A DNA stretch of 15,937 nt from a virus (Duplodnaviria > Heunggongvirae > Uroviricota > Caudoviricetes): IMG/VR virus record IMGVR_UViG_2737471841_000003; one strand, written 5' to 3'. The position numbers were made by a program, and so were the translations under genes. The notes beneath the pieces are model-generated. The model searched no databases, was not told where the DNA came from, and was given only the letters and a program-made list of their open reading frames with translations. This document shows, piece after piece, positions 1 through 15,937 of this stretch (within the stretch, counting starts at the first letter, position 1; the number at the start of each line of letters is the position of its first letter).

Positions 1-1
1 C

Positions 2-106
2 GGTAGCGAGGGTGATAAGCCTAAACTGGTGCGGAAACAGATCACACTGGGGGCAAGGCCGATTAACGTTGACCTTTCTAAAGAAGTTAAACGTTTTAAT
101 GAATAA
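2..106 (+). CDS. 3' end of an upstream gene (partial, 34 codons, ...KEVKRFNE*); possibly a tail assembly gene given what follows
   Basis: Frame 2 is open from the window edge to TAA at 104-106, 11 nt before the RBS of the next gene. No start is visible, so this rests on the open frame only. Confidence 0.3.
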   Translation, partial: GSEGDKPKLVRKQITLGARPINVDLSKEVKRFNE

Positions 107-2463: not shown

Positions 2464-2539
2464 GGTGTACCTCCTATTGCACTGGCTACGCCAGGTAGCC
2501 ACAGCTACCCCGCAGGGTGTTACCGCCGTTAACGTCCAT

Positions 2540-5036: not shown

Positions 5037-5360
5037 TTAAAGTGCTAATTTGACATGTTCGTTTAACAGGTGGGGAATAGCTTCCGGAGGATTAATTCCG
5101 AAAGAATTTAATACCACACCGATCCCGTGAACAATAACTAATTTGTCGCCTTTTTTAGCTGGTTCCAATACCACAAATAAAGCAGGCATCTCTTCTTCGT
5201 CAGCGTCGAATTTTGCCCCTTCTGCGGTAATAACATCGCCAGGGAATAAATCCTCAGTTAATGCCGTTTTCAGTTCCAGAGCTTTTTGTTCAAACTCGGG
5301 GTCCATGGAATAGGCGACCACATCTGCACGTGTTTTACGCGGCTTATCAGAAAATAACAT
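5037..5360 (-). CDS. Putative head decoration protein (107 aa), lambda gpD-like by position and size
   Basis: ATG at 5360 with GAGGT SD. Its stop is 12 nt upstream of the capsid gene start. 107 aa vs 110 aa for lambda D. Sequence similarity to gpD was not confidently recognised; the call is positional. Confidence 0.45.
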   Translation of the reverse strand: MLFSDKPRKTRADVVAYSMDPEFEQKALELKTALTEDLFPGDVITAEGAKFDADEEEMPALFVVLEPAKKGDKLVIVHGIGVVLNSFGINPPEAIPHLLNEHVKLAL

Positions 5361-5429
5361 CGTGTTACCTCATCTCTATCGCATTTATCAGATTTAATGT
5401 ATTAGAATCTCACCTCTGATACATTAATA

Positions 5430-5460
5430 AAGGCCACCCCTTCAGGTTGGGTAGCCTTGA
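5430..5460 (-). terminator. Terminator-like hairpin upstream of the head genes (- strand)
   Basis: On the - strand: GGCTACCC, loop AACCTGAA, GGGTGGCC (8-bp stem with one G.U), then TTTATTAATG. It lies about 70 nt upstream of the start at 5360. Confidence 0.3.
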
Positions 5461-5913
5461 TAATGGACCAGGTGCATAATCCAGAGCACGAAGATTATTC
5501 TCTGGTCATTCGTCTGTCGAGGTGATTTAAATGTGAAGTGAATCAGGCATTACTGCCTCAATCCATATAATAAAACCTCCCCCTAGCCCAGAGAGAGGCC
5601 TTATTATTTACTAGGATATATGAATGACTGATTTCAGTCTGGCAGATTCGCTAATAGCTCACCGCCTGGCACTTATTATCGCCTTCATTAGATCACCACA
5701 AATAATGTCGGCTATGGGAGAATGTAACCCGCTCCCAGTTGTTCACAGTACAACCAGACTTTTTACTGGAGAAAGTAATATCCACTCGTATAAATATTAC
5801 CTTCTTTAAAGGCCCTCGCTACGGTGGAAAGAAGAGGTAGCACAGAACAACCAGCAAAGACCTTTAAAGAAGTACGCCCAGCATCAAGGGGAAAATGATG
5901 AAAAAGCTCTGAG

Positions 5914-5942
5914 CTTCCGGGCGTTGACAAGTACAGGAGAAC
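5914..5942 (+). promoter_or_regulatory. Near-consensus sigma70 promoter (TTGACA, 17-bp spacer, TATTAT; TG immediately upstream of the -10)
   Basis: TTGACA at 5914-5919, TATTAT at 5937-5942, TG at 5935-5936. Confidence 0.45.
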
Positions 5943-6018
5943 ACTGTATTATCCAATAATCGGTGAGATGTAGGTGAGATAACTCGAAAGGTGTAACCAT
6001 GAAAGTATCTACATCATA

Positions 6019-6038
6019 GTATTATGATAACATAATAC
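6019..6038. promoter_or_regulatory. Inverted repeat (GTATTATG ATAA CATAATAC), candidate operator or RNA hairpin in the leader
   Basis: 8-bp arms separated by 4 bp, downstream of the 5914 promoter and followed 16 nt later by a T7 run (6055-6061). Confidence 0.3.
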
Positions 6039-6095
6039 TTGCCGTTTGTCAATCCTTTTTTCAAAGAAATTTAAAAAATTTTTCTCTCCGCCTCT

Positions 6096-6142
6096 TTTCT
6101 CGATCAAACAATTGAAAAAACTATTGACTGAGGCGTTAGAAT
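6096..6142 (+). promoter_or_regulatory. Promoter for the homing-endonuclease-like gene: 13-bp upstream box TTTCTCGATCAAA, then -35 TTGAAA and -10 TAGAAT (19-bp spacer)
   Basis: The box at 6096-6108 is identical to 14751-14763, which sits in the same position relative to the consensus promoter at 14768. -35 at 6112-6117, -10 at 6137-6142. The spacer is longer than optimal. Confidence 0.35.
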
Positions 6143-12362: not shown

Positions 12363-12371
12363 CACACACTA

Positions 12372-12408
12372 GGGACAAAATGTCCTACCTACCCGGGACA
12401 AAATGTCC
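12372..12408. promoter_or_regulatory. Two copies of a 14-bp palindromic operator-like site, GGGACAAAATGTCC, 23 bp centre to centre
   Basis: Exact copies at 12372-12385 and 12395-12408. Each is a dyad (GGACA-N3-TGTCC). Confidence 0.5.
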
Positions 12409-12409
12409 A

Positions 12410-12419
12410 CCCCCCCCCC
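12410..12419. repeat. Homopolymeric C10 tract
   Basis: Ten consecutive C at 12410-12419, directly after the second operator copy. Confidence 0.9.
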
Positions 12420-12449
12420 GGCAATATGTGATTCCCGGAAGACACATGT

Positions 12450-12486
12450 TTGTACAAATTGTAGTCACTGATTGTACAGATTGTAG
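12450..12486. repeat. Two direct repeats TTGTACA(A/G)ATTGTAG spaced 22 bp
   Basis: 12450-12464 and 12472-12486. Each has a TGTACA palindromic core. Confidence 0.6.
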
Positions 12487-12490
12487 CACT

Positions 12491-12573
12491 ATACCGGTTT
12501 TCCGATAGAGCTATACCGGATTTCCGGTAGAGGTATACCGCTTTTCCGGTATAGGTATACCGGATTTCCGGTA
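12491..12573. repeat. Iteron array: four 17-bp dyad-symmetric sites (ATACCGG-N-TTTCCGGTA) at exactly 22-bp spacing; putative replication origin or partition/regulator binding array
   Basis: Sites at 12491-12507, 12513-12529, 12535-12551 and 12557-12573. Arms TACCGGA and TCCGGTA are reverse complements. Followed by an AT-rich stretch (12574-12622), the same layout as the lambda origin (four dyad iterons plus an AT-rich region). Confidence 0.6.
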
Positions 12574-12622
12574 ACTATTAGATCAATCTATTACATCAAG
12601 AAAAAAGATCACTTATTATATT

Positions 12623-12645
12623 AAGGGCCTTGCCCTTTTTGTTGT
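12623..12645 (+). terminator. Terminator-like hairpin (AAGGGC, loop CTT, GCCCTT, then TTTGTTG)
   Basis: 6-bp GC-rich stem with a 3-nt loop, then a T-run, at the end of the AT-rich region. It would terminate read-through from the 12087 gene across the iterons. Confidence 0.35.
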
Positions 12646-13845
12646 GGGATTGATTGGTGGGATTGATCTTACTGATAGTATAATACTCCACCAATCAACC
12701 CTAAGTTGTGGGAGAGTACGGAGCAGACTGCGACTACAGAGCAGGCTGAGAAGTACTCAATGGGTGTAAGGGATTAAGGGACCCACACACATTTCCACAC
12801 ACAGAGTAAAGCCAGAGGCTTTATGAAGTGTAAGAGTAATGCCTAAAGAGTCGAAGCACACTTTAGGCTATATTGTGTGGGAGGTATCTGTACATAGTAC
12901 AGAGTACTCCCCATTATGTGGGGGCAATCCTGCCCGTAAGGGCAGCTCATGTGATTCGCAGCCGTAAGCTGAACTGCGACGAAGAAGGCTGCAAAGGTTC
13001 TCGGCCCGGTTACAATTACGCAACAATTTTATAATCTATCGTTAACCTATACCACTATCACAATTTCTATAGTTGAGTCCTACTATCCCCTACACCATAA
13101 AATCAATTTTAAGCCACACTCAGCCTACGGCTTCACGGTAAAACGTGTTTTAACCCACATAATGGCCCCTGTAGTGAGCTAAATGGTATACACCGCTATA
13201 ATTGGGTTACTTATGAGATAACCTCGTTAGAATCGATTCTAGAGCGTTTTAGAGCTTGAAATCCATCCTGCAAACTGCAAGATGATGATTCTATCGGGGA
13301 AGAATTTTTTTCCTTCCCGTAAGTCGTACCGTAGAGCAGATTTGCTTTACGAGCTTTCTCACACCTCAGGCCTCTGGCCTTCATGGAGTATCGGAGATAC
13401 GACTCACCGCATATACTCTGTTTTCAGTGCTACCCTGATCGCATCCGACCCTTTTCAGAGGCACTTTTAACCGCATTCTGGCACGCTACAACAGCAAGAA
13501 ATAGGCTGATTCTACTGATTTTACCTTACAATACAGGTACATAGCAGAAGGGCAGGAATATACTGTGAGAATGGTTGCTAGACCGGGCCTTCTTCTCTCT
13601 GTGTGTGCATTCTGAAACCGTTATGTAGTCGAGTATATAACGACTGGTCAGACCAGTGCAGGGCTGAAAATGATGATCGGTCACCACAATTATGGGCAAA
13701 TTACTGTACATTCATACAGTAGTTATACATAAAGAATATGCATCGATTGCTCTTTAGGCACAGATGTTATAATGTAACAATTAATTTAGTTTACCTCGGT
13801 AATCACTGTGTGGACATGTCACGCAACTAAACTAAATCCGAAGAG

Positions 13846-13854
13846 TTATCCACA
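13846..13854 (+). promoter_or_regulatory. Consensus DnaA box TTATCCACA
   Basis: Exact 9-mer match to the R-type DnaA box, single copy. Nearby are an 8-bp palindrome GACATGTC (13812-13819) and a 10-bp inverted repeat, ATTTAGTTTA (13783-13792) with TAAACTAAAT (13827-13836). Confidence 0.3.
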
Positions 13855-14687
13855 GATTGGGGGTAAATCATCAACATAGTCTGTAGCCTCTGACAGAGAG
13901 CAAAAAGAAAGGCCTTTTATGTGATCAATATCACGTTTCTGGGGTAGTTCTGGAGGCTTAGGTGCGGGGAAGTAGTGCGTACTGACACCAGAGGCCGCAT
14001 AAAACAAGGGGATTTAACATAATGGATCTTGTATACACCACACCTCACCACGTTGAAATCTGATCTTACTTTGAGGCTATCTGCCAACAGAATCCGCGTA
14101 CATGCACCATAACCTGTATGTGGGATGCAATAATAAAGGCCCTGGCGGCCCACAGGCCGCATGAATACTGGGCTTGTCATAGATATGGGCCTGTATCGCT
14201 ATGTAGATGCGGGATGACCTGTAAGGGTGTGGCAGGTGGCAGGGGCTGGAGGGCACGGTACAGCACAGCTAATGGGTGAGGCCCCAGATATTTGAGAATC
14301 ACTCTCACCTGAGAATAATTATCAGTAACTCCTGCCTAGTACCACCCCTGTAGGTAAGGTTGATCATTGCCCACATTGCTGGTATACTTTATCTGTGGGA
14401 AAGTAACGCCGTTACTTCCGCGAACGCTGTGCGTGATGTGTGGGAGAATGTGCCTGCGTAATAAAAAAATTGAAAATTACTCATCTGTCAACATTTCAAT
14501 GACGTATGTCAATCATTTATGCTATGTGTTTACTTTATAATCAATCACTTACGAATTTAATGAAATAAATGCATTTAAATAGGGTGAAACTCAAATCTAA
14601 CCCCTGAAACTGTGTTGATAAAGGGGCGTGAAGCCCGGCGTAGGTAACTCGTTACCCGCCAGTGTTATTGATAATTCTCATTTACGT

Positions 14688-14716
14688 TTGACAATGCAAT
14701 CCCAATGGTGTATAAT
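14688..14716 (+). promoter_or_regulatory. Perfect consensus sigma70 promoter (TTGACA, 17-bp spacer, TATAAT)
   Basis: TTGACA at 14688-14693 and TATAAT at 14711-14716, in an AT-rich upstream context. Confidence 0.6.
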
Positions 14717-14750
14717 AGACTATAAGGGGTAAGATAGAATCTTTACTCAA

Positions 14751-14796
14751 TTTCTCGATCAAAGGTATTGACAAATGAGAGTAAAGGTGTTATACT
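14751..14796 (+). promoter_or_regulatory. Second tandem near-consensus promoter (13-bp box TTTCTCGATCAAA, then TTGACA, 17-bp spacer, TATACT)
   Basis: Box at 14751-14763, -35 at 14768-14773, -10 at 14791-14796. It lies 80 bp downstream of the 14688 promoter. Confidence 0.6.
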
Positions 14797-14885
14797 TATC
14801 TATAACAGCAAAACTCTACTTTAGAGCCGCTCCATGAGGAGCAAAGCTCCGAAGTGTGATCATAGTCGGTAAATCCCTTACTTAC

Positions 14886-14918
14886 CGGGGGCACTTCTCC
14901 AGCCCCCTCTCTTTTTAA
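14886..14918 (+). terminator. Intrinsic terminator in the leader (GGGGGC, 9-nt loop, GCCCCC, then TCTCTTTTTAA)
   Basis: Stem 14887-14892 pairs with 14902-14907, followed by a T-run at 14908-14916. It is about 110 nt downstream of the predicted start site and about 50 nt upstream of the 14969 start. Confidence 0.5.
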
Positions 14919-14968
14919 CGGTATGGTAAGAAAACATTCTTTATAAGTGATAAAAGAGGTAGTTAATC

Positions 14969-15208
14969 ATGGCTAAACCTTATTCAAATAGCTTTAACAT
15001 TGAAACAATGAGAGCTGATCAGATTGTAGACATGGTGAGGAACCAGGAACTTTCAGAGGAGACGCTCTACATGTTCATCTATCGCACGAAGAACCGTTAC
15101 CCGGAGGTAGATAAGGCATGGAAGGAGATCAAGCGCCTCAAAAAAGAGTTCAAGAAAGAAGCTGAATTGTACTGGCGCAAACGGTTTTTCTATAACTACA
15201 AAGGCTAA
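14969..15208 (+). CDS. Hypothetical basic protein (79 aa)
   Basis: ATG at 14969 with AGAGGT SD. K/R-rich C-terminal half. Confidence 0.6.
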   Translation: MAKPYSNSFNIETMRADQIVDMVRNQELSEETLYMFIYRTKNRYPEVDKAWKEIKRLKKEFKKEAELYWRKRFFYNYKG

Positions 15209-15240
15209 TCGGTAGAGATAACAAAGATAAAGGTGGAAAC

Positions 15241-15756
15241 ATGAGAGCAGTTTTTGATCAGCTGCCGTGGTGGCTTGATTTTCTCGAAGAACTGGACGGA
15301 AAGAAATTTAAACTGACAAAAGGTGAAGCGAGAGCATTTGCTTGTATTCTTACGTATGCCGCGACATGTGGTAAGATTTTCCCGTCACTCCACACAATAG
15401 CCCTTCATATGGGTTTACGGAGTGAAAAACGAGCGCCGACACAGGCGCATAAAGCGATCAAAGGCCTGGAGGAAAAAGGCCTTATACGTGTTAGCCGTCG
15501 CGCTGGGTGTGGAAACCATTATGAACTAGTTTACACAGCAGATCAACTCTTTGAGATGACAAAGCAACAGAATCCAGACTTGTTCAAAGGCTATGAAGAC
15601 ACGTTCGGAGAAGAGGATAGGGAGAGAGAACAGGCAGGGGATAAACCGAAGAAACATGATACAAAACAGGGGGTTACGTGTCAACATGACAACGGTCAAC
15701 CGGATGATATTCACATAGAAGCGTGTGATCTGGATGCTACTGACATACCATTTTAA
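15241..15756 (+). CDS. HTH_36-type winged-helix DNA-binding protein (phage replication/regulatory type), 171 aa, with SSB-like C-terminus (...DLDATDIPF)
   Basis: ATG at 15241 with AAGGTGG SD. The segment LTKGEARAFACILTYAATCGKIFPSLHTIALHMGLRSEKRAPTQAHKAIKGLEEKGLIRVSRR matches the HTH_36 pattern seen in the N-terminal domains of phage replication proteins. The terminal codons GAC ATA CCA TTT TAA were checked. Confidence 0.7.
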   Translation: MRAVFDQLPWWLDFLEELDGKKFKLTKGEARAFACILTYAATCGKIFPSLHTIALHMGLRSEKRAPTQAHKAIKGLEEKGLIRVSRRAGCGNHYELVYTADQLFEMTKQQNPDLFKGYEDTFGEEDREREQAGDKPKKHDTKQGVTCQHDNGQPDDIHIEACDLDATDIPF

Positions 15757-15824: not shown

Positions 15825-15937
15825 ATGAGTTTAGTTGAAAGATTGAAAAAAATCCTCGCCACAGAAGAGGTAGAGGAAGAGGAAGAAGTAGAGAAGGCGG
15901 CGGATCCTAAGCCTGAGAAGGCTGTGAATACCCAGAG
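15825..15937 (+). CDS. 5' end of a downstream gene (partial; MSLVERLKKILATEEVEEEEEVEKAADPKPEKAVNTQ...)
   Basis: ATG at 15825 with GAGGT SD (15813-15817). The ORF is open to the window end. Confidence 0.5.
   Translation, partial: MSLVERLKKILATEEVEEEEEVEKAADPKPEKAVNTQ

What the first reader, a model, noticed from the sequence alone, without database searches (positions are those of the whole stretch)
14688..14920. Tandem consensus promoters driving a ~110-nt terminated leader with mutually exclusive hairpins: a small RNA or an attenuator
Two of the strongest-looking promoters in the window (TTGACA-17-TATAAT at 14688 and TTGACA-17-TATACT at 14768) fire into a segment containing GAGC-C-GCTC, GCTCC (14829-14833), GGAGC (14838-14842) and GCTCC (14846-14850). 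The central GGAGC can pair with either flanking GCTCC, which gives alternative structures. A canonical intrinsic terminator follows (GGGGGC/GCCCCC plus a T-run at 14887-14916), before the RBS of the 14969 gene. The layout fits either an abundant phage sRNA or a riboswitch or attenuator controlling the replication-associated operon (14969, 15241). A possible 20-codon leader ORF (GTG 14856 to TAA 14918) would end inside the terminator.
Basis: partly seen in the sequence, partly recalled or inferred. Interest (0 to 1): 0.6.

Follow-up and report, generated by a model that had tools for sequence, protein, structure and literature searches.

The report
Conserved promoter–leader–terminator gate before an operon
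Two very strong promoters fire into a short RNA that ends at a transcription terminator just before the replication-initiator-like and tail tape-measure genes of a small circular phage-like plasmid; the layout is conserved in distant E. coli relatives, but the "switching" hairpins are a dispensable insert, so this is an ordinary terminated leader, not a riboswitch.

Summary
P1 (14688-14716, 12/12 consensus), P2 (14768-14796, 11/12 plus TG), the GCTCC/GGAGC/GCTCC motifs and a GC hairpin with T-run (14887-14916) are all present. Near-consensus promoters are enriched (6 observed, 0.4 expected).

Comparison with 9 metagenomic relatives and E. coli 13-kb plasmids (proteins about 30% identical) shows that the promoters and the terminator are conserved. 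Three different stem sequences occupy the same position, each followed by the same T-run.

The hairpin segment (14822-14859) is the least conserved part. It is absent in three relatives, replaced in two and tandemly triplicated in one. A second copy lies on the minus strand at 13359-13388. It never overlaps the terminator, which forms with probability at least 0.99 in every relative. The 20-codon ORF is not conserved.

There is no Rfam hit, no antisense promoter and no promoter downstream of the terminator. The 14969 operon, which runs through the O-like winged-helix gene to the tape-measure gene, therefore needs read-through.

Best reading: a promoter-proximal terminator gate that also makes an abundant short RNA, as at lambda PR'-tR' (6S/StxS). 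The read-through factor is unknown. Verdict: new member of a known kind, modest interest.

The parts
14688..14716 (+). Promoter P1, TTGACA-17-TATAAT; predicted start about 14723-14724
   Evidence: 12/12 consensus. Conserved in 7 relatives. Homologous to the P1 of E. coli plasmid pE275a_13, sharing ATAATTCTCATT...TTGACAAT. In that plasmid it drives a 49-aa ORF that is missing here.
14753..14763 (+). TCTCGATCAAA motif directly upstream of the P2 -35 hexamer. A second exact copy lies at 6098-6108.
   Evidence: Two exact copies. The upstream regions of P2 and of the minus-strand promoter at 6052 align. Function not tested.
14768..14796 (+). Promoter P2, TTGACA-17-TATACT with an extended -10 TG (14788-14789); predicted start about 14804
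   Evidence: 11/12 plus TG. It is the most conserved stretch of the region, with identity score 0.97-1.0. The equivalent promoter TTGACA-17-TAAAAT plus TG is invariant in six E. coli plasmids.
14804..14825 (+). 5' end of the leader: conserved AACAGCAAAACTC, then a small hairpin CTCTA-CTT-TAGAG (14813-14825)
   Evidence: ACAGYAAAACTC is kept in all 7 window-clade leaders, and is shifted downstream in L005. The hairpin is shared with L007.
14826..14859 (+). Variable hairpin module CTCCATGA-GGAGC-AAA-GCTCC-GAAGTGTGA.
   Evidence: Absent in L002, L007 and L012, variant in L006, different in L005, and three tandem copies in L009. A second copy lies on the minus strand at 13388->13359 with stem AGGCC/GGCCT. 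Identity score 0.25-0.36.
14857..14886 (+). Conserved leader core TGATCATAGTCGGTAAATCCCTTACTTACC
   Evidence: GATCAT is invariant in 9 of 10 window-clade sequences. It aligns with TCATCATAGTGAATTTCCTTTAG of the E. coli plasmid leader. It is predicted unpaired, or in a loop, in both clades.
14887..14916 (+). Intrinsic terminator: GGGGGC / 9-nt loop ACTTCTCCA / GCCCCC, then TCTCTTTTT
   Evidence: -13.1 kcal/mol. Pairing probability at least 0.99 in every relative. The GGGG/CCCC stem core, the TTCTCC loop core and the distal CTTTTT of the T-run are invariant in the clade. E. coli plasmids carry different stems (GGCGGGGGCTTG/TGAGTTCCCGTT; GCTGGG/CCCAGC) at the homologous place, followed by the same TTCTTTTT.
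14917..14968 (+). Spacer and ribosome-binding site (AGAGG 14955-14959) of the first gene; no promoter
   Evidence: No promoter-like site here. The spacer shrinks to about 27 nt in L002 and L009.
14969..15208 (+). First operon gene, 79 aa, three helices, function unknown
   Evidence: Orthologous to the 69-aa first gene after the terminator in pE275a_13 (30% identity, E 1e-6).
15241..15756 (+). 171-aa winged-helix protein with an acidic tail, replication-initiator-like (O-like)
   Evidence: Weak PHROG hits, about 1e-4 to 3e-5. Winged-helix model whose best structural matches are MarR, LexA and MecI folds, all E >= 0.013. Distant relatives hit phrog_270, 678 and 186 and HTH_36. 31% identical to the 306-aa HTH protein of pE275a_13.
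15825..15937 (+). 72-aa gene that continues at window 1-106 across the circular junction; the tape-measure gene (118-2256) and terminator 2267-2287 follow
   Evidence: The joined ORF is intact and homologous end to end to the L009 product. The order Rep, small gene, tape-measure gene is seen in L004, L006 and L009. Tape-measure identification.

Best explanation
This is a promoter-proximal terminator cassette at the head of the operon that runs 14969 -> 15241 -> 15825/1-106 -> tape-measure gene 118-2256. Host sigma-70 RNA polymerase starts strongly at P2 (and at P1, 80 nt upstream). It transcribes a short leader and mostly stops at the intrinsic terminator at 14887-14916. The result is an abundant short RNA: about 113 nt from P2, about 193 nt from P1, and 57-214 nt in relatives. 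Only polymerases that read through the terminator express the operon, because no other promoter serves it. The cassette therefore sets, and probably times, expression of the replication-initiator-like and tail genes. This is the layout of lambda PR'-tR', where the short product is the 6S or StxS RNA.

The hairpin module at 14826-14859 is an optional, copy-number-variable insert. It does not decide termination.

Shown by sequence and comparison: the promoters, the terminator, their conservation, the dependence of the operon on read-through, and the dispensability of the hairpins.

Inferred: that termination is efficient, and that read-through is regulated. Regulation could come from an unidentified antitermination factor of the element or of a helper phage, or read-through could be merely a constant leak. 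That the short RNA has a trans-acting role is also only inferred.
For: Near-consensus promoters are enriched and specific.

P2 and the terminator's 3' arm and T-run are among the most conserved non-coding stretches. Their identity scores are 0.97-1.0 and 0.85, against about 0.5-0.7 for most of the adjacent coding sequence.

The terminator hairpin folds at -10.6 to -15.6 kcal/mol in six leaders. It forms with probability at least 0.99 whatever lies upstream.

The same architecture precedes the orthologous first gene in E. coli 13-kb plasmids, whose proteins are only 29-31% identical. The leader core and T-run align between the clades. The stem is replaced by two unrelated sequences at the same position. 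This argues for selection on terminator function rather than on sequence.

No promoter-like site lies between the terminator and the RBS, and the spacer is only about 27 nt in L002 and L009.

A second strong promoter on the minus strand (6052) is followed by a highly conserved leader of about 420 nt and an invariant terminator-like hairpin (5597-5576) before the capsid operon. Terminated leaders may therefore be a general feature of this element.

The lambda PR'/tR'/StxS precedent is described in PMC7547250.
Against: No transcript data exist.

The window's U-tract is interrupted (UCUCUUUUU) and the loop is large (9 nt), so termination efficiency could be modest.

No Q-, N- or other antiterminator family was detected among the window's proteins. 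The regulated-read-through step therefore has no identified actor.

Within the window clade the terminator stem never varies, so it gives no covariation signal there.

No target for a trans-acting RNA was found in the window.

The plus-strand leader before the capsid operon in the E. coli plasmid shows no clear canonical terminator.
Confidence: 0.6

Rival explanations
1. The short terminated transcript is the real product: a trans-acting, possibly Hfq-dependent, small RNA that regulates host or helper-phage mRNAs. Read-through into the operon would be incidental.
For: It has its own very strong promoters, a terminator with a U-tail, and conserved segments predicted to be unpaired: the 5' AACAGCAAAACUC and the AUCAU core. 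The pyrimidine loop CUUCUCC is invariant in the clade and is complementary to GGAG-type Shine-Dalgarno sequences. StxS shows that such leaders can be functional sRNAs (PMC7547250).
Against: No complementary target stands out in the window. The 5' segment is not shared with the E. coli plasmid clade. The operon has no other promoter, so read-through cannot be incidental. The host genome and the rest of the 60-kb relative could not be searched.
Confidence: 0.2
2. The leader is a riboswitch or attenuator in which the central GGAGC pairs with either flanking GCTCC, and that choice, or translation of the 20-codon ORF, decides whether the terminator forms.
For: Both pairings are possible in the window, and in L009 copies 1 and 2. 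An ORF from GTG 14856 runs through the terminator. Several relatives have some ORF crossing the terminator.
Against: The module is absent in three relatives and variable in others, while the terminator is kept. Neither pairing overlaps the terminator arms, and the terminator forms with probability at least 0.99. One pairing is favoured by about 6 kcal/mol. The alternative pairing is impossible in the copies whose stems are AGGCC/GGCCT or AGCC/GGCT. No Rfam match. The ORF's frame, start and stop are not conserved, and there is no Shine-Dalgarno sequence.
Confidence: 0.04
3. The hairpin with T-run is a weak terminator. It acts mainly as a structural element of the 5' UTR, giving mRNA stability, a processing site or RBS masking, or as a DNA-level element of the replication region such as a primer transcript or transcriptional activation of an origin near the Rep-like gene.
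For: The U-tract is interrupted in the window. The U-tract can pair with the AAAGAGG ribosome-binding site in read-through RNA. A 4-10 bp helix can enclose the terminator. The O-like initiator gene lies just downstream, and iterons, a DnaA-box consensus and an AT-rich ultra-conserved block lie upstream.
Against: The enclosing helix has no statistical support. The U-tract/RBS pairs never vary, so they are uninformative. Replacement of the stem by unrelated GC stems next to an invariant T-run is what selection for termination predicts. The iterons lie 2.3 kb away.
Confidence: 0.14

Closest known systems
Lambdoid late promoter PR' with terminator tR' (6S RNA; StxS in Shiga-toxin phages) and Q antitermination
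   Same: A constitutive strong sigma-70 promoter. An intrinsic terminator within about 60-210 nt that yields an abundant short RNA. Downstream structural genes are reachable only by read-through. The short RNA may have its own function (PMC7547250).
   Different: No Q-like protein or Q-binding element was identified. The region upstream is 2.6 kb of non-coding DNA, not a Q gene. The initial transcribed region of P2 has no -10-like pause element. There are two tandem promoters. The operon begins with small proteins and a replication-initiator-like gene, not lysis genes. There is no sequence similarity.
Satellite phage P4 immunity (PLE promoter, CI RNA, premature termination at timm before the replication gene); C4-type RNAs of P1, P7 and N15 (Rfam RF01695; recalled from knowledge)
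   Same: A small phage-like plasmid or satellite-sized element. A constitutive promoter. Premature termination upstream of replication genes. A small RNA derived from the leader. A central sequence able to pair with two flanking repeats.
   Different: No Rfam C4 match even at E <= 10. The complementary motifs are only 5 nt long and are not conserved. No processing signals are known.
Antisense-RNA-driven transcription attenuation of plasmid rep genes (pT181, pIP501, pAMbeta1; from knowledge)
   Same: A strong promoter, a leader and an intrinsic terminator upstream of a replication-initiator-like gene on a small plasmid.
   Different: No promoter-like site on the opposite strand within the leader. 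No pre-emptor sequence complementary to a terminator arm.
Lambda N / nut (boxA plus boxB hairpin) antitermination
   Same: A short hairpin module (5-bp stem, 3-nt loop, conserved flanks) sits between a strong early-type promoter and the first terminator.
   Different: The boxA consensus GCUCUUUA is not conserved. The hairpin module is missing in three relatives. No N-like protein was found.

Membership tests
Lambda-type PR'-tR'/Q late-gene antitermination | Strong constitutive sigma-70 promoter followed within about 200 nt by an intrinsic terminator that gives a short RNA | tested here: met
   By sequence and folding only. Conserved in two clades. No transcript data.
Lambda-type PR'-tR'/Q late-gene antitermination | A Q-family antiterminator gene, normally just upstream | tested here: not met
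   No Q or other antiterminator family among 20 window proteins in Pfam, PHROGs or NCBIfam. Upstream lies 2.6 kb without genes. Q families are diverse, and a helper phage could supply one.
Lambda-type PR'-tR'/Q late-gene antitermination | Sigma-70-dependent promoter-proximal pause element (-10-like) in the initial transcribed region | tested here: inconclusive
   None after P2. TAGAAT at 14735-14740 lies about +12 to +17 of P1, but it is not kept in L005 or L012.
Riboswitch or other cis-regulatory RNA family in Rfam | Conserved aptamer or structure that matches a curated covariance model | tested here: not met
   No match at gathering score in the whole window. Only chance-level hits at E <= 10 in 14300-15100.
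Classical terminator/antiterminator attenuator | An alternative structure that competes with the terminator hairpin, conserved in relatives | tested here: not met
   The alternative hairpins do not overlap the terminator arms. The terminator forms with probability at least 0.99 in 7 leaders. The segment is deleted or replaced in relatives.
Leader-peptide (translation-coupled) attenuation | Conserved short ORF with an RBS whose translation reaches or controls the terminator | tested here: not met
   ORFs that cross the terminator differ in frame, start codon, length and stop. The GTG-ATC-AT ORF stops after four codons in L008 and has no start codon in L002 or L012, where only unrelated ORFs in other frames cross the terminator. 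No consistent Shine-Dalgarno sequence.
Hfq-type trans-acting sRNA | Own promoter plus an intrinsic terminator with a U-tail | tested here: met
   The U-tail has 5 contiguous U in the window, and reads UUUCUUUUU in most relatives.
Hfq-type trans-acting sRNA | Conserved unpaired seed with identifiable complementary targets | tested here: inconclusive
   Conserved unpaired stretches exist. No target in the window stands above background. The host genome is unknown.
C4 / CI antisense-immunity RNAs (P1, P4, N15) | Match to the C4 RNA structure, with long repeats complementary to the RNA's loop in the same leader | tested here: not met
   No Rfam hit. Only 5-nt repeats, and these are not conserved.
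Countertranscript-driven rep attenuation (pT181 type) | Antisense promoter within the leader | tested here: not met
   No minus-strand promoter-like site (at least 9/12) between 14700 and 15000.

The most novel reading that the evidence does not exclude
The cassette is the master switch of a previously undescribed family of 13-16 kb circular, capsid- and tape-measure-encoding plasmids of enterobacteria, which look like satellites. Its abundant leader RNA would act as an immunity or copy-control RNA. Its terminator would be overridden by an antiterminator from a roughly 60-kb helper phage of the L009 type, coupling the element's replication and structural genes to helper infection. The covarying hairpin module with invariant GA/GA flanks, present in variable copy number, would be a protein-binding RNA motif that tunes this response.
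Probability: 0.12. Interest if true: 0.7.

Novelty: new member of a known kind. Interest (0 to 1): 0.35.

Why it matters
As a regulatory device it is familiar: a strong promoter, a short terminated leader, and an operon that needs read-through. Its value lies in where it sits. It heads the replication-initiator-like and tape-measure operon of an uncharacterised family of small circular phage-like plasmids. These have no DNA or protein match among 50,697 deposited phage genomes. Relatives are carried as plasmids by 7 of 5,426 complete E. coli genomes.

The cassette is better conserved than the proteins around it, so it is probably a key control point. Because E. coli relatives exist, it can be tested directly with Northern blots, Term-seq, reporter fusions and a screen for the factor that allows read-through.

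The eye-catching alternative hairpins are an optional module, not a switch.

Tried and rejected
1. DNA searches of the phage collection, near and distant, found nothing. Protein searches of the same collection with the capsid and Rep-like proteins also found nothing.
2. Exact-pattern scans of viral, metagenome and genome collections found nothing. One used the P2 sequence and one the ultra-conserved upstream block. Relatives came only from the protein index and from PLSDB and RefSeq E. coli plasmids.
3. The search for related loci in viral contigs gave no hit for the Rep-like protein and one doubtful 20-residue match for the 79-aa protein. I did not use it.
4. Rfam gave nothing for the leader or for the 2.4-kb gene-poor region.
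5. Searches for targets complementary to the conserved 5' segment and to the terminator loop found nothing above background.
6. I looked for a sequence element shared by the plus-strand leader and the minus-strand capsid leader. Only the promoters' upstream regions align, plus a chance-level 8-mer, TTCTCCAG.
7. A helix enclosing the terminator (columns 24-28 with 76-80 of A6) is no better than shuffled controls.
8. The near-consensus antisense promoter inside the Rep-like gene (15684-15656) has a -10 hexamer that degrades to TATCAG in 4 of 7 relatives. I did not pursue it.
9. Structure prediction and fold search of the 79-aa protein gave no match. For the 171-aa protein they gave only a generic winged helix.
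10. A K-turn reading of the GA/GA-flanked hairpin, and a resemblance to N4 hairpin promoters or CRISPR repeats, were considered from memory. I dropped them because they are untestable here or do not fit: tandem copies have identical 15-nt spacers, and no giant RNA polymerase is present.
11. Literature searches found no description of these plasmids.

Full report
**Observation**

- P1 is TTGACA-17-TATAAT at 14688-14716, a 12/12 match.
- P2 is TTGACA-17-TATACT at 14768-14796, an 11/12 match with an extended -10 TG.
- These are the best and joint second-best promoter matches in the window.

Sites with at least 11 of 12 matches number six in the window, against 0.40 expected in 300 Markov simulations (maximum 4). 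All six have a perfect TTGACA and a 17-nt spacer, so they are real features of this genome.

The terminator is GGGGGC (14887-92), a 9-nt loop and GCCCCC (14902-07), followed by TCTCTTTTT. The scanner missed it only because its loop limit is 8 nt. The hairpin folds at -13.1 kcal/mol. The whole leader folds at -36.4 kcal/mol, z = -3.7. From the predicted P2 start (about 14804) to 14916 is 113 nt.

**What the element is**

The window has no DNA or protein match among 50,697 deposited phages and no Rfam or tRNA hit. It encodes:
- a tape-measure protein (118-2256);
- a Dit-like protein and a lambda-E-type capsid protein on the minus strand;
- a T5orf172 nuclease, an AntA antirepressor and an HTH_23 protein.

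A 2.6-kb stretch without genes (12370-14960) comes next, followed by the 79-aa and 171-aa genes.

The end and start of the window join into an intact 72-aa ORF. This ORF is homologous end to end to the gene that precedes the tape-measure gene in relatives, and blastn runs seamlessly across the junction. The window is therefore a closed 15.9-kb circle. The operon behind the leader runs 14969 -> 15241 -> 15825/1-106 -> tape-measure gene, and ends at the terminator at 2267-2287.

The 171-aa protein is a winged-helix protein with a disordered acidic tail. Its few distant relatives hit replication-initiator, O-like and DnaD-like PHROGs and HTH_36. 'Replication-associated' is therefore plausible but weakly supported.

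**Relatives**

The protein index gave nine metagenomic loci, with Rep-like identity of 80-91%. One of them lies inside a 60-kb contig that also carries a terminase (L009).

A tblastn search with the capsid protein then found circular E. coli plasmids of 13.2-13.7 kb. These are non-mobilizable and occur in 7 of 5,426 complete genomes, always as plasmids; one record is a trimer. They share the gene order and a 2.2-kb gene-free gap. Identity to the window is 29% for the capsid protein, 30% for the tape-measure protein, 31% for the Rep-like protein and 30% for the first small gene.

**Comparative result for the finding**

Within the window clade, P1, P2 and the terminator are conserved. The identity score is 0.97-1.0 for P2 and 0.85 for the terminator's 3' arm and T-run. 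Most of the adjacent coding sequence scores about 0.5-0.7.

The segment holding the GCTCC/GGAGC/GCTCC motifs is the least conserved part, at 0.25-0.36. It is deleted in L002, L007 and L012, different in L005 and L006, and present as three tandem copies in L009.

This segment is a discrete module, CTCCnnGA-[4-5 bp stem, 3-nt loop]-GArGTGTGA. The GA dinucleotides flanking the stem are invariant, and four different stems are seen. A further copy lies on the minus strand at 13388->13359. Comparison therefore supports the GGAGC/GCTCC hairpin as the unit. Thermodynamics in the window favours the other pairing by about 6 kcal/mol.

Neither pairing overlaps a terminator arm. The terminator forms with probability at least 0.99 in all seven leaders, which range from 57 to 214 nt. 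ORFs that cross the terminator differ in frame, start and stop, and lack a Shine-Dalgarno sequence. The switch, riboswitch and leader-peptide ideas are not supported.

**The E. coli plasmids**

On the minus strand of pE275a_13, a homologue of P1 drives a 49-aa ORF that is lost in the window. It is followed by:
- a promoter equivalent to P2 (TTGACA-17-TAAAAT with TG);
- a leader of about 65 nt;
- a hairpin with TTTCTTTTTAAC;
- a ribosome-binding site and the orthologous small gene, whose product starts with MAK.

The leader core and T-run align with the window at 14852-14924. The stem is GGCGGGGGCTTG/TGAGTTCCCGTT in five plasmids and the unrelated GCTGGG/CCCAGC in pMB4926_4. Three different GC stems next to the same T-run, at the same place, in elements whose proteins are about 30% identical, is the signature of selection for termination.

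Within the window clade the stem never varies, so that clade alone gives no covariation signal.

**Mechanism**

No promoter-like site lies between the terminator and the RBS, and the spacer is only about 27 nt in L002 and L009. The operon therefore depends on read-through. Very strong promoters followed by a terminator make sense only if the short RNA is useful, if termination is regulated, or both.

This is the logic of lambda PR'-tR', whose short product is the 6S RNA and, in Shiga-toxin phages, the functional sRNA StxS (PMC7547250). A second strong promoter on the minus strand (6052) is followed by a highly conserved leader of about 420 nt and an invariant terminator-like hairpin before the capsid operon. 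This fits a general use of terminated leaders in this element.

Several things were not found:
- no antiterminator family in the window's proteins;
- no antisense promoter in the leader;
- no C4-type RNA;
- no target complementarity in the window.

How read-through happens, and whether the RNA acts in trans, remain inference.

**Verdict**

The feature is a conserved promoter-leader-terminator gate: a new member of a known kind, set in an uncharacterised family of phage-like plasmids. The alternative hairpins are an accessory module.

Noticed in passing
whole window (junction 15937/1); L009; L013-L018: The window is a closed 15.9-kb circle encoding a capsid protein, a Dit-like protein, a tape-measure protein and an O-like initiator, but no terminase or portal. 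Distant relatives are E. coli plasmids of 13.2-13.7 kb (7 of 5,426 complete genomes; one record is a trimer). A close relative of the same module sits in a 60-kb contig with a terminase. This may be an undescribed satellite-like or mini phage-plasmid family. No literature was found.
   Followed up: partly
window 12370-14960 (also L009 7376-10001, L012 1-1776, L013 7331-9536): A stretch of 2.2-2.6 kb is free of genes in all relatives. It contains conserved blocks (12907-13106, 13431-13747, 14248-14359), many small hairpins including GNRA-type loops, and a perfect 12-nt long-range inverted repeat (12911-22 / 13154-65). TGTGGG occurs 7 times on the plus strand, often just after a hairpin. The hairpin-plus-TGTGTGGGAG unit at 12843-12885 is recognisable in the E. 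coli plasmid (L013, about 7885-7840, minus strand). No Rfam match. It could hold structured RNAs, an origin, or both.
   Followed up: partly
window 14460-14599: A 140-nt AT-rich block is 93-99% conserved across five genomes, higher than any coding region nearby. It contains two TGTCAA motifs and the 12-nt palindrome TAAATGCATTTA (14567-14578). It lies between promoter P0 and P1. Function unknown.
   Followed up: partly
window 14360-14460; L012 1520-1600: A third plus-strand promoter, P0 (TTGATC-17-TATACT with TG), is conserved in L009 and L012 as TGnTACAAT. It is followed by a hairpin module (GGGAAAGTAAC-GCC-GTTACTTCC). In L012 this module has a compensatory stem (GTAGC/GCTAC) and sits between P1 and P2. 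Promoter-proximal hairpin modules seem to move or duplicate.
   Followed up: partly
window 12372-12575: Directly after the 91-aa HTH_23 gene come GGGACAAAATGTCC twice, a run of 10 C, and four 22-nt iterons with core TATACCGGnTTTCCGGTA. L009 has different iterons (TATCGGTATGGAAACC, three copies) after a different HTH gene at the same place. L013 has CCTGTTGGAATTTCCCACAGG repeated five times. These are candidate origin, partition or packaging sites.
   Followed up: no
window 5355-6075, both strands: Two near-consensus promoters face each other: 5924 on the plus strand and 6052 on the minus strand, with starts about 58 bp apart. Both are conserved in L004 and L009. The minus-strand one is followed by a leader of about 420 nt that is almost invariant over about 350 nt, an invariant terminator-like hairpin (5597-5576), and a second hairpin with a T-run whose stem differs between genomes (about 5455-5425). 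The capsid operon follows.
   Followed up: partly
window 13359-13388, minus strand: This is a second copy of the leader hairpin module, in the opposite orientation inside the gene-poor region: CTCCATGA-AGGCC-AGA-GGCCT-GAGGTGTGA. Its stem is compensatory relative to the leader copy.
   Followed up: partly
window 2474-2523 and 14623-14662; L009 9524-9620; L002 upstream of P1: Another small repeat family consists of two or three hairpins, CACTGGCTACGCCAGGT-[GGAC tct GTCC]-ACCCC. The second stem varies (GGTAGC, GGTGAC, GTGGAC, GGTAAC). It occurs just upstream of P1 in several genomes, possibly ending P0 transcripts, and near the minus-strand gene at 2314-2568.
   Followed up: no
window 15656-15684 and 15433-15448, minus strand: An 11/12 promoter match lies antisense inside the Rep-like gene, with a terminator-like hairpin about 210 nt downstream. 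The -35 hexamer is invariant. The -10 hexamer is TATCAG in 4 of 7 relatives and TATAAT in two. The surrounding coding DNA is unusually conserved.
   Followed up: partly
window 15140-15219: The last third of the 79-aa gene is 90-97% conserved at the nucleotide level, against 47-70% for the rest of the gene. This suggests an overlapping constraint.
   Followed up: no
window 13846-13854: A perfect DnaA-box consensus, TTATCCACA, occurs once. About 0.1 such matches are expected by chance in the window.
   Followed up: no
L013 7182-7331, minus strand: In the E. coli plasmids a conserved 49-aa hydrophobic ORF lies between P1 and P2, and its 3' end overlaps P2. The window clade has lost it, which is why P1 and P2 look like simple tandem promoters here.
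   Followed up: partly
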